The notes under the pieces: generated by a model
Databases searched by the model: none
What the model saw: the letters and a program-made list of their open reading frames with translations, nothing else
What the model was told of the DNA's origin: nothing
In this document: positions 3,031-10,812 of the stretch, one piece after another
Layout: every line of letters begins with the position of its first letter
Numbering within the stretch: position 1 is the first letter of the stretch
Made by a program: the position numbers and the translations under genes
Source: a virus
Reading direction: 5' to 3' (one strand)
UHGV virus genome: UHGV-0160150
Length of the DNA: 29,487 nt

Positions 3031-3128
3031 TTTCTGTAGGCTTCTACGGCTTCACGAAACATCTTTTCATCGCCAATAAAAGTGGCGATAGTGAATTTAG
3101 TCTGGATAGCCATAAGTGTTTTATCCAT
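3015..3128 (-). CDS. kil: Kil-like small protein (host cell-division inhibitor)
   Basis: 37-aa frame MDKTLMAIQTKFTIATFIGDEKMFREAVEAYRKWRSK. ATG at 3128 sits in ATGGATAA, overlapping the cIII stop. Resembles lambda Kil from memory and lies directly downstream of cIII. Confidence 0.45.
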   Translation of the reverse strand: MDKTLMAIQTKFTIATFIGDEKMFREAVEAYRKWRSK

Positions 3129-3261
3129 TTTTGGGAACTCCTGGCTGATTAAGTATGTCGATAAGGCGTTTCCATCCATCACGTAATTTACGTGTGATTC
3201 GTTCAAGTAAAGATTCGGAAGGGCAGCCAGCAACAGGCCACCCTGCAATGGCATATTGCAT
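3121..3261 (-). CDS. cIII: CIII-like protein (FtsH protease inhibitor, stabilises CII)
   Basis: 46 aa MQYAIAGWPVAGCPSESLLERITRKLRDGWKRLIDILNQPGVPKNG, matching lambda CIII as I recall it. Strong RBS AAGGAG 6 nt before ATG at 3261. Confidence 0.65.
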   Translation of the reverse strand: MQYAIAGWPVAGCPSESLLERITRKLRDGWKRLIDILNQPGVPKNG

Positions 3262-3287
3262 GGTGTGCTCCTTATTTATACATAACG

Positions 3288-3438: not shown

Positions 3439-3484
3439 AGTGCAGTGTTTATTCTGTTGTTTATGCCAAAAATAAAGGCCACCA

Positions 3485-3685
3485 TCAGGCAGCCTTGTTA
3501 TTCTGTTTACCAAGTTCTCTGGCAATCATTGCCGTCGTTCGTATTGCCCATTTATCGACATATTTCCCATCTTCCATTACAGGAAACATTTCTTCAGGCT
3601 TAACCATGCATTCCGATTGCAGCTTGCATCCATTGCATCGTTTGAATTGCCCACACCATTGATTTTTATCAATAGTCGTAGTCAT
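3485..3685 (-). CDS. ral: Small Cys-rich protein, Ral-like (restriction alleviation) candidate
   Basis: 66 aa MTTTIDKNQWCGQFKRCNGCKLQSEC... with four Cys in CX5CX2CX5C spacing. Size, position (between N side and cIII) and my recollection of lambda Ral fit; unverified. Confidence 0.45.
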   Translation of the reverse strand: MTTTIDKNQWCGQFKRCNGCKLQSECMVKPEEMFPVMEDGKYVDKWAIRTTAMIARELGKQNNKAA

Positions 3686-3755
3686 AAGGATAGTCCTGGT
3701 ATTGTTCCATCACATCCTGAGGATGCTCTTCGAACTCTTCAAATTCTTCTTCCAT
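3669..3755 (-). CDS. Tiny acidic ORF (28 aa), orf28-like position upstream of ral
   Basis: MEEEFEEFEEHPQDVMEQYQDYPYDYDY with GAGGTG RBS 5 nt before ATG at 3755. Overlaps the start of the ral-like gene in another frame. Below the ORF-track size cutoff; found by eye. Confidence 0.3.
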   Translation of the reverse strand: MEEEFEEFEEHPQDVMEQYQDYPYDYDY

Positions 3756-3936
3756 ATATCACCTCAAATAAGTGGTTTGCTGCCTAATTTCATTTTCTGG
3801 CGACCAACACAAGTCACACCCATTTCACTGCGTGGCTTGCGGTAGTAAAGATTGTGCCTGTCTTTTAACCACATCAGGCTCGGTGGTTCTCGTGTACCCC
3901 TACAGCGAGAAAAATAGTAAAATCCTCTTCACCCCC

Positions 3937-4299
3937 TTACTTTGTCAGGGGGATATCTCCTTCAGTTCTGACCATTCGCCTTAATACTTTCCTTAAGTCG
4001 ATGTAAAGTTGAATGTCTCCATTTGCTGCGGCATCAGCCATTTTTTGCCTGACAAGCAGTAATGTTTCATACGGCTCAATAAGAATATCGTCATGAGTAA
4101 TTAGGTGAAGCGTTGCCGCATCAACTATTCCTAGAGCTGCGCCAAGTATCAAAAATTCCCTGCTATTTTTGTCGCATGAGGAGATAAGCGTATTTAGCGC
4201 ATACCTAATATTCTTTATAGCTGTTGTTAATGCTGCAATTTCTTCTATGGCGTCTTCTTCAATGAGCTTTTTAAGCTCATATTTTTCTTCCTGACCCAT
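3937..4299 (-). CDS. Hypothetical AT-rich accessory protein (120 aa), immediately downstream of N
   Basis: Track ORF 3937..4383. Internal ATG at 4299 (MGQEEKYELKK) has GAGGT RBS and directly follows the N stop. No TM segment or recognised motif. AT-rich relative to neighbours. Confidence 0.55.
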   Translation of the reverse strand: MGQEEKYELKKLIEEDAIEEIAALTTAIKNIRYALNTLISSCDKNSREFLILGAALGIVDAATLHLITHDDILIEPYETLLLVRQKMADAAANGDIQLYIDLRKVLRRMVRTEGDIPLTK

Positions 4300-4301
4300 A
4301 A

Positions 4302-4571
4302 TTACCTCGCCGTCAGTTGTTTTGATTTCCGGTAGCCTGCCGCGTAAATAGCTACGTTTGGCAGGCAAATACTTCCACTGCATTCATCTGCCTTCTTGCA
4401 GCGAAGGCTTCCGAGTGATGCTGCTTTATCTGCTCTGACGCAACCAGAGAGCTTTAGCGCAATTTTTCGTGCCAATCGCTGTTCTTGCATTGCCTGTTCA
4501 CGTTGAGCCTGTCTGCGTGCTCTGCGGCGATTTCTGGCGTTATCATCAGCCAGATAAGTAACGATTATCAT
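4302..4571 (-). CDS. N: N-like transcription antiterminator (arginine-rich motif)
   Basis: 89 aa from ATG at 4571 (GGAGG RBS, 5-nt spacer). N-terminal ARM DDNARNRRRARRQAQREQ resembles lambda N's QTRRRERRAEKQAQW. First gene downstream of pL/nutL; matching nut sites are present on both operons. Confidence 0.65.
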   Translation of the reverse strand: MIIVTYLADDNARNRRRARRQAQREQAMQEQRLARKIALKLSGCVRADKAASLGSLRCKKADECSGSICLPNVAIYAAGYRKSKQLTAR

Positions 4572-5001: not shown

Positions 5002-5042
5002 TCCCGCATTTCGGCGGGACAATCCCATCAATGTTAAAGAGC
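5002..5042 (-). promoter_or_regulatory. nutL candidate (boxA-like GCTCTTTAACA plus boxB hairpin)
   Basis: Minus-strand transcript reads GCTCTTTAACA, a 12-nt spacer, then TCCCGCCGAAATGCGGGA; the same boxA and boxB occur on the plus strand after cro. Confidence 0.55.
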
Positions 5043-5084
5043 CTGCCAATCTGTTCCGTTTGGCTTCCAGCGTCCTGCTGATGG

Positions 5085-5175
5085 CTTAAAGATAACTTAG
5101 GTTATAGGTGTGGTCAATAACCTAATTTATATTTTATGGTAAATAAGTTATAAGTGATGGATAACAAAGGTATTT
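5085..5175 (-). promoter_or_regulatory. oL/pL: leftward early promoter with ATAAC-N4-GTTAT operators
   Basis: Perfect operator ATAACTTAGGTTAT at 5092-5105; imperfect copies at 5117-5130 and 5161-5174. Minus-strand -35 TTGACC (5112-5117), 17-bp spacer, -10 TATCTT (5089-5094). Confidence 0.5.
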
Positions 5176-5304
5176 TATTTTTGTAAATGTTGCTGATTGA
5201 TTGGTGTTTGAGGGCTTACGTGCGGGGTGAAGGTGTTACCTTTGGCTTGATGCTTGTCTATGATGAGGATGGTTGATTGGGTGGTGAACGGCAGGAAAAG
5301 AAAA

Positions 5305-5330
5305 CCCGGCGCTGAGGCCGGGTGTTTTTA
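5305..5330 (-). terminator. Intrinsic terminator ending the cI operon
   Basis: Hairpin CCCGGC-GCTGAG-GCCGGG with T-rich tracts on both sides (possibly bidirectional), immediately 3' of the 98-aa gene stop. Confidence 0.6.
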
Positions 5331-5624
5331 GTCTTTTCTTTTGCTTAGCATTTCGTCGATTTCTAAGTCAATACGATATTGATCTATTGCTTTTCTCTCG
5401 TTTGGGGTTGGTATTTTATACTGTTCAATTAGATCTGTTGTGTATTTTATTTCATCTAATGTGATTTTTATATCAGAGAGAATCTCTTTTATATCAATTA
5501 GATGCTCTTCTTCTTTTGCGCGATTAGAGCTATGTTCAATCATTTGAGATAGCTTTTTGCTAATGCTTAGCAAAACAAAAAGAATGATGACCAAAACAAC
5601 AACAAAAACTATCAGAAATTCCAT
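5328..5624 (-). CDS. Small membrane-anchored coiled-coil protein (98 aa) in the rexAB-equivalent slot; function unknown
   Basis: N-terminal hydrophobic helix (FLIVFVVVLVIILFVLLSI) followed by a charged, heptad-like region. GGAGGG RBS; 40 bp downstream of cI on the same strand. Markedly AT-rich. Followed at once by the terminator. Confidence 0.6.
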   Translation of the reverse strand: MEFLIVFVVVLVIILFVLLSISKKLSQMIEHSSNRAKEEEHLIDIKEILSDIKITLDEIKYTTDLIEQYKIPTPNERKAIDQYRIDLEIDEMLSKRKD

Positions 5625-6708: not shown

Positions 6709-6716
6709 GTAACACC

Positions 6717-10200: not shown

Positions 10201-10812
10201 ATGCGAATAAAAAAAACAATTGATCACGATGAGCTTCTGTCAACATTATCATATGACTCAGAAACAGGAATATTTAAATGGCTAAAAACAAATTCAGTAG
10301 TAAGAGTAAAAGGTAGTATTGCTGGAGGTGTTAGTGGTGGTTATATATGCATTAGCATAAATAATGTTTTGTATTATGCGCATAGGCTTGCTTGGTTCTA
10401 TGTATACAAAAAATGGCCTCCTAAGTTTATTGATCATGTAAATGGGAACAGACTTGACAATAGGATTTCAAATCTAAGACTGGCAACAGAGGAGCAGAAT
10501 GCAAGAAACATTGTAGGTAATAGGTTAAACACATCCGGTGCGATTGGAGTGTCTTGGGATAAGACAACTGGCAGGTGGAAGTCTTATGTTGGTTATAAAA
10601 ATAAGACAATATCGTTAGGGTATTTCGATAGCAAAGAAGATGCAGCATTCATAGCAGCACTAGCAAGAAAGAAACTATATGGAACTTATGCGAGTAAAGC
10701 ACTTAATTGCGAGCATGAGCTTTTATCTCAATTTAATAATGATGAGGATAAACTTGCGGAATATCTTAAGGAAAAATCTAAAAGGACTCGAAAGCGTGTT
10801 AAAAAAAGATAA
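10201..10812 (+). mobile_element. HNH homing endonuclease with AP2-type DNA-binding domain (free-standing)
   Basis: 203-aa ORF. N-terminal LLSTLSYDSETGIFKWL, HNH core IDHVNGNRLDNRISNLRLATEEQN, AP2-like segment GVSWDKTTGRWKSYVGYKNKTISLGYFDSKEDAA. Strongly AT-rich island between the replication and nin modules. Confidence 0.75.

What the first reader, a model, noticed from the sequence alone, without database searches (positions are those of the whole stretch)
3937..4299. AT-rich 120-aa unknown gene immediately after N (sieB/ral-type accessory slot)
The first gene after N on the pL transcript has a GAGGT RBS abutting the N stop and is clearly AT-poorer in GC than its lambda-like neighbours, suggesting horizontally acquired cargo. 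It is soluble (no TM helix) with no motif I recognise. Very early genes at this position are commonly anti-restriction, anti-defence or exclusion functions.
Basis: partly seen in the sequence, partly recalled or inferred. Interest (0 to 1): 0.6.

Follow-up and report, generated by a model that had tools for sequence, protein, structure and literature searches.

The report
Uncharacterised early phage gene hkaQ after N
The 120-codon gene right after the phage's N antiterminator is real and is a near-identical copy of hkaQ, a gene annotated but never characterised since phage HK620 was sequenced; it is a swappable, non-essential cassette switched on at the very start of infection, its function is still unknown, and a counter-defence role is a reasonable but untested guess.

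Summary
The ORF is real. It lies on the minus strand, 4299..3937, 120 aa. Its ATG is 2 nt after the N stop codon, and a GAGGT ribosome-binding site overlaps that stop.

It is 99% identical to hkaQ of phages HK620, HK629 and HK630 (phrog_7374, function unknown). It occurs in 96 of 5426 complete E. coli genomes.

Every homologue found, down to 40% identity, sits 2 nt after an N gene with the same 21-aa C-terminal tail. Only about 14% of N genes with that tail carry hkaQ. Others carry one of four unrelated coupled ORFs, or none.

Similarity breakpoints (about 4360 and about 3920) define a cassette of roughly 440 bp. dN/dS of 0.17–0.27 shows a protein under purifying selection.

No predicted terminator lies between pL and the gene, and a terminator insulates pL from the repressor transcript. 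It should therefore be expressed immediately on infection and be silent in lysogens.

The AF2 model is all-helical (pLDDT 75). An invariant TLHLxxHxDxLxEP segment is modelled with low confidence.

Best guess: a protein-binding inhibitor of a host or prophage anti-phage function. Function is untested.

The parts
3937..4299 (-). hkaQ coding sequence (120 aa plus stop). The model has helices at 3-40, 47-62/68, 78-93 and 96-110. The conserved core is residues ~24-76, with invariant N30, R32, D60, T63, H65, H69, D71, E75 and P76.
   Evidence: Translation. 99.2-99.4% nucleotide identity to HK620, HK629 and HK630 hkaQ. phrog_7374, E=3.7e-79. AF2 models. Invariant columns. dN/dS.
4304..4308 (-). GAGGT Shine-Dalgarno for hkaQ. 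It lies inside the last codons of N, shares one base with the N stop codon TAA (4304..4302), and sits 4 nt before the ATG.
   Evidence: Read directly. The junction GCGAGGTAANNATG is conserved in all loci listed, including the 40-64% homologues.
4302..4571 (-). N antiterminator homologue (89 aa) with an arginine-rich N-terminus. Its C-terminal tail CLPNVAIYAAGYRKSKQLTAR travels with hkaQ.
   Evidence: PF25694, E=2.2e-15. phrog_271. Tail conserved upstream of every hkaQ while the rest of N varies, with at least 5 types.
4302..4365 (-). Conserved N-tail segment. It forms the upstream arm of the hkaQ mosaic module, and recombination breakpoints cluster at about 4340-4369.
   Evidence: Limits of similarity among the loci. 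Tail DNA variants.
3912..3936 (-). Downstream edge of the module. Similarity to other hkaQ loci ends at about 3920-3949, and lambda-like DNA (lambda 34453 leftwards) begins at about 3912. A CCCCC/GGGGG hairpin (3952..3932) spans the stop codon but is not a canonical terminator.
   Evidence: The fold of 3860-3975 has z=0.10, so it is not significant. It is not reported by the terminator scan.
5089..5117 (-). pL-like promoter (TTGACC-17-TATCTT). It is the only promoter-like site upstream of N-hkaQ on this strand.
   Evidence: Consensus scan. The position matches the pL of HK620 relative to N.
5002..5043 (-). nutL-like element: boxA-like GGCTCTTTAAC (5043..5033) and a boxB-like hairpin TCCCGC-CGAAAT-GCGGGA (5019..5002).
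   Evidence: Read directly. No statistical test was run, and the strict boxA pattern found only nutR at 6716.
5304..5323 (-). Intrinsic terminator after the 98-aa gene downstream of cI, in the tIMM position. It insulates pL, N and hkaQ from the prophage repressor transcript.
   Evidence: Terminator scan. Analogous to tIMM in the HK620 annotation.
3485..3755 (-). Next genes on the transcript: the orf28 homologue (3755..3669) and ral (3685..3485). The first predicted intrinsic terminator on this strand follows at 3496..3475.
   Evidence: Translation. Ral PF11058, E=1.6e-48. Terminator scan. 97.6% identity to lambda.

Best explanation
The ORF is hkaQ. It is a non-essential, horizontally exchanged cassette that lambdoid phages of Enterobacterales carry directly behind their N antiterminator gene.

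**Shown:**
- It is a conserved protein-coding gene.
- It is always placed 2 nt after the stop codon of an N gene, and the last codons of that N gene supply its ribosome-binding site.
- It moves as a module of about 440 bp (N tail plus hkaQ).
- It is one of at least five unrelated alternatives in that slot.
- It has no detectable relative of known function or fold.

**Inferred from the anatomy:**
- It is transcribed from pL ahead of any predicted intrinsic terminator and translated in step with N. That makes it an immediate-early product made before and independently of antitermination.
- It is not made in the repressed prophage.

**Inferred mechanism (my commitment, untested):**
- HkaQ is a small, mildly acidic helical protein. 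Its helix-hairpin scaffold (residues ~24-68) presents an invariant, poorly ordered segment, T-L-H-L-x-x-H-x-D-x-L-x-E-P (63-76).
- It acts stoichiometrically. It binds and neutralises a host- or resident-prophage-encoded factor that would otherwise abort or restrict the incoming phage, such as a defence or exclusion protein.
- In timing and logic this resembles the first-expressed anti-restriction genes of other phages, and Ral and Abc2 further down the same operon.
For: **Identity.** 99% to HK620, HK629 and HK630 hkaQ and a full-length match to phrog_7374.

**Real gene.** dN/dS is 0.17-0.27 across lineages. Within the E. coli clade the core 47-79 is nearly invariant, and the polymorphisms lie outside it.

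**Coupling to N.** All loci listed show the N stop, 2 nt, then ATG, with GAGG inside the N tail. This holds in Yersinia, Symbiopectobacterium and unknown-host lineages at 40-64% identity.

**Accessory cassette.**
- hkaQ is present in 16 of 116 viral contigs with the same N tail. The others have unrelated coupled ORFs of 74, 237, 138-150 or 97 aa, or none.
- hhalign and BLASTP find no homology between the cassettes.
- Module edges are sharp.
- GC is low, at the 4th percentile.
- It occurs in 96 of 5426 complete E. coli genomes.

**Timing.**
- No terminator-like site lies between pL (5117-5089) and 3937 on the minus strand, and a terminator sits upstream of pL.
- The HK620 annotators place tL1 downstream of hkaQ.

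**Operon theme.** Ral, Abc2 anti-RecBCD and Kil lie on the same transcript.

**Binding-protein features.**
- All-helical AF2 model, pLDDT 75-76.
- The most conserved segment (69-76) has pLDDT below 50.
- pI 5.0.
- No enzyme family or fold match.
Against: - No functional evidence of any kind exists. No similarity was found to any known anti-defence, anti-restriction or exclusion protein.
- HkaQ is not a strongly acidic DNA mimic (net charge -5).
- PADLOC is a defence library, not an anti-defence library, and no anti-defence library could be searched.
- Position in a variable early slot is only a prior. Genes in such slots also include regulators and host-killing functions.
- The cluster of invariant polar residues (D60, H65, H69, D71, E75) could equally be a metal or catalytic site.
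- The hydrophobic helix 49-67 could mean membrane association.
- The AF2 models rest on 4-7 sequences and have pTM of only 0.45-0.46.
- Rho-dependent terminators are not detected by the scan, so N-independent expression is inferred, not shown.
Confidence: 0.4

Rival explanations
1. HkaQ is a modulator of the phage's own early programme. It might be a partner or stabiliser of N (for example protecting N from Lon, or tuning its C-terminal tail on RNA polymerase), or it might bias the lysis-lysogeny decision.
For: It is always coupled to an N gene with one particular C-terminal tail, across 40-99% identity. The translational coupling implies co-production with N. NCBI names it 'antitermination N domain protein'.
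Against: - About 86% of N genes with the identical tail have no hkaQ, so N does not need it.
- The N body upstream of hkaQ is of at least 5 unrelated types.
- There is no similarity to N or to any N Pfam family. The NCBI name therefore has no support from sequence similarity, and I suspect an annotation artefact.
- The N tail is conserved with the other cassettes as well.
Confidence: 0.15
2. HkaQ is a host-takeover or membrane-acting protein of the Kil or cIII type. It would insert or dock by its hydrophobic helix 49-67 and perturb a host inner-membrane function, or a membrane exclusion protein such as SieB.
For: - Kyte-Doolittle mean of 2.03 for residues 49-67. That is higher than the best 19-mer of lambda SieB.
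- The segment after the helix is acidic, which is compatible with an N-in topology.
- In four lineages the convergent next gene is SieB (PF14163), overlapping hkaQ at the 3' ends.
- kil and cIII lie in the same operon.
Against: - Invariant Asp60 and His65 sit in the middle of the helix.
- The Hessa sum is +2.8 to +8.3, and hydrophobicity falls to 1.5 in the distant homologues.
- AF2 buries the helix in a bundle.
- SieB next to N is the general lambdoid layout, as in lambda itself.
- hkaQ occurs without SieB or HkaP, as in this window, and HkaP homologues occur without hkaQ.
- There is no similarity to SieB or HkaP.
Confidence: 0.15
3. HkaQ is a superinfection-exclusion or defence function expressed from the prophage (a sieB or rex type moron).
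For: It occupies the place where sieB lies in lambda. It is AT-rich, as morons often are.
Against: - It lies on the pL strand and is translationally coupled to N.
- No promoter-like site lies upstream other than pL. The only internal one, at 4152-4124, is inside the ORF.
- A terminator separates it from the cI transcript.
- There is no PADLOC hit.
- Real exclusion genes at this locus are convergent and have their own promoters.
Confidence: 0.05
4. HkaQ is a very small metal-dependent enzyme. It would use the invariant D60, H65, H69, D71 and E75, for example to hydrolyse a nucleotide or a defence signal.
For: An invariant acidic/histidine cluster, with an H-x3-H-x-D pattern, is conserved down to 40% identity.
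Against: - No match to any enzyme family or fold.
- The conserved core of about 60-90 residues is a helical hairpin, which is too small for known hydrolase folds.
- One lineage has HND in place of HDD.
- The motif is modelled as disordered.
Confidence: 0.05

Closest known systems
HkaQ of coliphage HK620 (NP_112050; also HK629 gp44 and HK630 HkaQ; PHROG 7374)
   Same: Same gene. It shares 99.2-99.4% nucleotide identity, the same length and the same position 2 nt after N, and matches phrog_7374 full length.
   Different: The downstream neighbour differs. HK620, HK629 and HK630 have the convergent hkaP. This window joins directly to lambda-type orf28/ral and has no hkaP or sieB. Only the last residues differ among alleles. 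No function has been reported. The only paper found used the hkaP/hkaQ intergenic region as a neutral insertion site (PMC4506075).
Ral of lambda (PF11058), an early pL-operon anti-restriction protein
   Same: It is a small protein on the same pL transcript in the N-proximal accessory region, and is non-essential. This window carries a true ral 250 bp further down.
   Different: There is no sequence similarity. Ral is basic (pI 8.8) and 66 aa, while HkaQ is acidic and 120 aa. HkaQ precedes Ral and is coupled to N.
SieB of lambda and P22 (PF14163), superinfection exclusion B
   Same: It occupies the DNA immediately after the N stop codon in lambda, and is the convergent neighbour of the distant HkaQ homologues.
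   Different: It lies on the opposite strand, has its own expression in lysogens and carries N-terminal membrane segments. It has no similarity to HkaQ. This window has no SieB.
First-expressed anti-restriction proteins such as T7 gp0.3 Ocr (DNA mimic)
   Same: The logic is the same: a small acidic protein made at the very start of infection, before other phage genes. This comparison rests on my own knowledge of T7 and was not tested here.
   Different: HkaQ has a net charge of only -5 and pI 5.0. Fold searches returned no specific match of any kind. There is no evidence of anti-restriction activity.

Membership tests
HkaQ / PHROG 7374 | Full-length sequence match to the family profile | tested here: met
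   phrog_7374, E=3.7e-79, residues 1-120 against profile 1-120. 99% nucleotide identity to HK620 hkaQ.
HkaQ / PHROG 7374 | Position directly downstream of, and coupled to, an N gene with the CLPNVAxYAAGYRKSKQLTAR tail | tested here: met
   The window and all loci listed show the N stop, 2 nt, then ATG.
Phage N antitermination proteins (as the NCBI name 'antitermination N domain protein' suggests) | Match to an N family profile (PF25694, PF26859) or similarity to N, and an arginine-rich RNA-binding motif | tested here: not met
   No N family appears among Pfam hits at E<=1. There is no NCBIfam hit. BLASTP against the window's own N gives no alignment at E<=100. No arginine-rich motif is present in the sequence.
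Ral (PF11058) | Match to the Ral profile | tested here: not met
   HkaQ gives no hit. The Ral profile matches the separate gene at 3685..3485, E=1.6e-48.
SieB (PF14163) | Profile match and N-terminal transmembrane segments | tested here: not met
   No Pfam hit. hhalign against the Yersinia SieB gives probability 0.2. The only hydrophobic helix is borderline and central, not N-terminal.
SieB (PF14163) | Expression from the prophage (own promoter, orientation opposite to pL) | tested here: not met
   The gene is on the pL strand and coupled to N, with no promoter-like site upstream except pL and a terminator between the cI operon and pL. Expression itself cannot be measured with these tools.
DNA-mimic anti-restriction proteins (Ocr/ArdA type) | Very high negative charge density mimicking DNA, and the corresponding fold | tested here: not met
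Anti-defence proteins in general (functional class) | Relieves a defence system when expressed, and the phage lacking it is restricted | not testable with these tools
   This needs plating assays. Only circumstantial support exists: immediate-early position, a variable slot, and an operon with Ral and Abc2.
Known anti-phage defence systems (PADLOC-DB) | Match to any defence protein model | tested here: not met
   Zero families at E<=10 for HkaQ. No hits for the P0003 and P0007 homologues.

The most novel reading that the evidence does not exclude
HkaQ founds a new family of immediate-early counter-defence or anti-exclusion proteins. More broadly, the position translationally coupled to the N stop codon would be a dedicated hotspot where lambdoid phages swap unrelated first-strike inhibitors: HkaQ, phrog_5305, phrog_2539, and the 97- and 138-150-aa families. 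That would be comparable to anti-CRISPR loci or the P2/P4 hotspots, and it would offer a simple positional rule for mining new anti-defence genes.
Probability: 0.3. Interest if true: 0.6.

Novelty: new member of a known kind. Interest (0 to 1): 0.4.

Why it matters
The sequence itself is not new: hkaQ has been annotated since HK620 was sequenced. It has no assigned function, no relatives outside a few Enterobacterales phages and no recognisable fold. It sits in Stx1-type and other prophages in about 2% of complete E. coli genomes, including strain H19.

If it is a first-strike inhibitor of a host or prophage barrier, two things follow. It would add a new anti-defence family. It would also give a cheap positional rule for finding more: take the ORF coupled to the N stop codon.

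If it has no such phenotype, it remains one more lambdoid ORFan.

Tried and rejected
**Sequence homology found nothing of known function.**
- Searched: Pfam, PHROGs, NCBIfam, PADLOC, PDB sequences (single sequence and profile), phmmer against 1.84 billion representatives, and a profile search of 5.8 billion proteins.
- The three long repeat proteins (P0009-P0011) are summed chance matches to a repeat, not relatives.

**Fold searches were uninformative.**
- Foldseek against BFVD and the PDB gave nothing below E=0.2.
- afdb50 was unavailable.
- A second AF2 run with a more diverse alignment did not raise confidence.

**Cognate pairing with the convergent neighbour (an Esc/SieB-like self-immunity idea) was rejected as an obligate link.**
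- Near-identical hkaP is always next to hkaQ (15 of 15). However, the 63%, 52% and 28% HkaP homologues have no hkaQ.
- hkaQ occurs without hkaP or SieB.
- N next to a convergent exclusion gene is the generic lambdoid layout.
- There is no similarity of HkaQ to SieB or HkaP.

**Common ancestry of the alternative slot cassettes was rejected**.

**The terminator hairpin at the stop codon is not significant**.

**Rfam found only the cIII thermoregulator**.

**Literature.**
- No paper mentions a function for hkaQ. Only PMC4506075 uses the hkaP/hkaQ intergenic site.
- The accessory-gene screen PMC12373910 does not contain the sequence in its supplements.

**SSB-tail-like 'GDIPL' at the C-terminus was considered and dropped.** It is not C-terminal and not conserved in the short forms.

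Full report
**1. What is there**

Window 3937-4299 holds, on the minus strand, an ORF of 120 codons plus stop.

- Immediately upstream on the same strand is an N antiterminator homologue. It runs 4571..4302, is 89 aa, and matches Pfam PF25694 at E=2.2e-15 and phrog_271.
- N ends ...ACG GCG AGG TAA. GAGGT (4308..4304) shares its last base with the stop codon. Four bases later comes the ATG at 4299..4297.
The strand is minus.
- A longer 148-aa reading from an ATG at 4383 exists and is used in some NCBI records. It overlaps N out of frame. All homologues, including distant ones, start at the ATG 2 nt after the N stop, so 120 aa is the real product.

**2. Composition**

- The gene has 39.7% GC, against 49.3% for N and 48.1% for the whole window.
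- That is the 4th percentile of all 363-nt windows, and the 9th percentile within the early-left region.
- The lambda-derived neighbour ral is similar at 41.3%. The AT-richness is real but stands out mainly against N.

**3. Identity**

- The DNA is 99.2-99.4% identical to hkaQ of HK620, gp44 of HK629, HkaQ of HK630 and a Stx1a phage. All of these are annotated as unknown or hypothetical.
- The protein matches phrog_7374 (unknown function) over its full length.
- It is found in 96 of 5426 complete E. coli genomes, always on the chromosome. These include many O26:H11 strains and strain H19.
- NCBI often labels it 'antitermination N domain protein'. I found no basis for that name:
  - no N family among Pfam or NCBIfam hits;
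  - no alignment to the adjacent N protein;
  - no arginine-rich motif.

**4. Family size and selection**

- phmmer against 1.84 billion representatives and word-indexed searches of 5.8 billion proteins, with a single sequence and with a profile, recover only the following:
  - the E. coli, Salmonella and E. albertii form (96-99% identity);
  - a 64% form of unknown host (P0003);
  - 92-93-aa forms at 39-41% identity over the full alignment (44-54% in the best local segment), from Yersinia pekkanenii, Symbiopectobacterium purcellii and two unassigned contigs.
- Three long repeat proteins are chance matches.
- dN/dS is 0.17 (window against P0003) and 0.27 (Yersinia against Symbiopectobacterium).
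- Within the E. coli clade there are 22 non-synonymous and 13 synonymous variants, almost all outside residues 47-79.
- This is a real protein with a constrained core.
- Invariant residues are N30, R32, D60, T63, H65, H69, D71, E75 and P76, plus hydrophobic positions.
- The short forms lack helices 3-4, so the core is residues ~24-76.

**5. Context and module structure**

- In every locus listed, the gene follows an N gene at the same 2-nt spacing. Each N has the tail CLPNVA(I/L/V)YAAGYRKSKQLTAR (CLPEVAKFAAG(F/H)RKSESLTAR in Yersinia).
- The remainder of N falls into at least five unrelated types.
- Limits of nucleotide similarity to the window cluster at two places upstream: about 4590 (whole N shared) and about 4340-4369 (only the tail shared). 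Downstream they cluster at about 3920-3949.
- From about 3912 leftwards the window is 97.6% identical to lambda 34002-34453, which is orf28 and ral.
- In lambda itself the convergent sieB abuts the N stop codon. This window has no sieB.
- The unit that moves is therefore about 440 bp: the N tail plus hkaQ.
- This agrees with published observations that N/gp24 proteins exchange C-terminal segments (PMC8022706).

**6. The slot is variable**

Of 116 assessable loci:

| Content directly after the N stop | Loci |
|---|---|
| hkaQ | 16 |
| 74-aa ORF (phrog_5305) | 18 |
| 237-aa ORF (phrog_2539, with a Zn-ribbon stretch resembling the Lar/endonuclease VII PHROGs) | 4 |
| 138-150-aa ORF | 3 |
| 97-aa ORF | 1 |
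| No ORF of 60 aa or more | the rest (74) |

- All of these ORFs are coupled to the N stop, and two families use the identical GAGGTAATTATG junction.
- The families are not detectably related to HkaQ, and none has a known function.
- The counts are not dereplicated.
- hkaQ is thus dispensable for N and for the phage, and is one of several alternative cargos.

**7. Neighbour on the other side**

- After hkaQ the most common E. coli neighbour is the convergent hkaP. It is 164 aa, belongs to phrog_1244, has a C-terminal CxxC...CxxC motif and is not PF14163.
- In the distant lineages the neighbour is a convergent true SieB (PF14163) overlapping hkaQ's 3' end.
- In the P0003 lineage it is a GhoS-like gene.
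- I tested whether this means cognate pairing, with an exclusion gene matched to an early antidote. It does not:
  - near-identical hkaP is always beside hkaQ (15 of 15), but HkaP homologues at 63%, 52% and 28% have none;
  - hkaQ often lacks both;
  - 30 of 88 hkaQ-less loci have SieB;
  - HkaQ has no similarity to SieB or HkaP.
- The adjacency reflects the general layout of N followed by a convergent exclusion gene.

**8. Expression logic (inferred)**

- The only promoter-like site upstream on this strand is the pL-like TTGACC-17-TATCTT at 5117-5089.
- A boxA-like sequence (GGCTCTTTAAC) and a boxB-like hairpin follow at 5043-5002.
- No terminator-like site lies between pL and 3937. The first ones on this strand are at 3496-3475 and 3348-3331, after ral.
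- In HK620 the annotators place tL1 downstream of hkaQ.
- Upstream of pL, a strong terminator (5323-5304) ends the cI-side transcript.
- HkaQ should therefore be made together with N from the first transcripts of an infecting or induced phage, without needing antitermination, and should be silent in a lysogen.
- This argues against a sieB/rex-type exclusion role and for a function needed at once on entry.
- Rho-dependent termination cannot be assessed with these tools.

**9. The protein**

- It has pI 5.0 and net charge -5.
- Two AF2 runs, with 4 and 7 sequences, give the same all-helical model: pLDDT 75-76 and pTM 0.45-0.46. Helices lie at 3-40, 47-62/68, 78-93 and 96-110.
- The best-conserved stretch, T63-L-H-L-I-T-H-D-D-I-L-I-E-P76, is the least confident internal part, with pLDDT below 50 for residues 69-76.
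- High conservation with low confidence is what one expects of a segment that orders on a partner. A metal or catalytic site is an alternative.
- Helix 49-67 is hydrophobic. Its Kyte-Doolittle mean is 2.03, against 3.67 for the clear transmembrane helix of the window's 98-aa protein. It contains invariant Asp and His residues, is much less hydrophobic in the short forms, and has a positive Hessa sum.
- I regard the protein as probably soluble, but membrane association is not excluded.

**10. Best explanation and rivals**

- Shown: the gene is an accessory, horizontally exchanged cassette coupled to N.
- Inferred: it is an immediate-early gene.
- My commitment (confidence about 0.4): it acts as a stoichiometric protein-binding inhibitor of a host or resident-prophage anti-phage function. 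This fits its timing, dispensability, diversity of alternatives, and an operon that also carries Ral, Abc2 and Kil.
- Rivals:
  - an N or developmental modulator (0.15);
  - a membrane or host-takeover protein (0.15);
  - a prophage-expressed exclusion factor (0.05);
  - a mini-enzyme (0.05).
- None of these can be separated further without experiments.

**11. Novelty and score**

- The gene is already in databases as HkaQ, so the sequence is not new. Its function is unknown, and I found no paper addressing it.
- If it proves to be a counter-defence gene, it would be a new member of a known kind.
- The N-stop-coupled cassette slot is a modest but useful generalisation.
- Interest: 0.4.

Noticed in passing
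window 4302-4571; loci L001-L049: N proteins upstream of hkaQ are chimeras. One conserved 21-aa C-terminal tail (CLPNVAxYAAGYRKSKQLTAR) is joined to at least five unrelated N-terminal and middle modules. Recombination breakpoints cluster at window ~4340-4369.
   Followed up: partly
L054, L081, L129 and about 40 other N-tail loci (just after the N stop): In many loci the DNA after the ...LTAR stop still encodes, out of frame, MTCVGRQK(I/M)KLGSKPLI. From memory this looks like the lambda/phage-21-type N C-terminus, so it may be a fossil of an alternative N tail left by recombination. I ran no comparison to confirm that identification.
   Followed up: no
L050, L052, L130, L131, L153, L158 (ORF starting at the N stop): Four other unrelated ORF families occupy the same N-coupled slot: 74 aa (phrog_5305), 237 aa (phrog_2539, with a Zn-ribbon stretch similar to the Lar-like/endonuclease VII PHROGs), 138-150 aa and 97 aa. 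All are of unknown function.
   Followed up: partly
window 5328-5624 (minus strand): A very AT-rich (30% GC) 98-aa ORF has a strong N-terminal transmembrane helix (KD 3.67). It lies between cI and pL, in the rex/hkaS position, and is followed by a terminator at 5323-5304. It matches phrog_18389 (unknown function). It is a likely prophage-expressed moron.
   Followed up: partly
window 3121-3261 and 3216-3274 (minus strand): cIII is truncated to 46 aa by an internal stop, as the HK620 annotation notes for its own cIII. The Rfam lambda cIII thermoregulator RNA (RF01804, 88.5 bits) is intact.
   Followed up: partly
window 10201-10812 (plus strand): The lowest-GC stretch of the window (31%, around 10111) holds an HNH_3 + AP2-domain ORF. 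This is probably a homing endonuclease inserted after the primase/helicase gene.
   Followed up: no
L001 4394-4888 (HK620 hkaP); hits H69-H99: HkaP is labelled a putative exclusion protein in HK620, but it is not a PF14163 SieB. It has a coiled-coil N-terminus and a CxxC...CxxC C-terminus. It has 27-33% homologues in Pseudomonas Mu-like phages (DMS3, JBD30, D3112 orf25, MP42) and in Klebsiella phages.
   Followed up: partly
L003/L004 (P0003 lineage), e.g. L004 1009-1281 and 2652-2948: These loci carry two different N-type genes on the same strand. One is a PF25694 N directly before the HkaQ homologue. The other is a PF26859 Phage_N_antitermin gene about 1 kb downstream.
   Followed up: no
L048 / L187: One hkaQ copy is frameshifted. 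The ORF breaks after 17 codons, and tblastn hits fall in two frames. This shows the gene can decay in some prophages.
   Followed up: no
window 3669-3755 (minus strand): The lambda orf28 homologue encodes an extremely acidic 28-aa peptide (MEEEFEEFEEHPQDVMEQYQDYPYDYDY). It overlaps the ral start by 17 nt, and its function is unknown.
   Followed up: no
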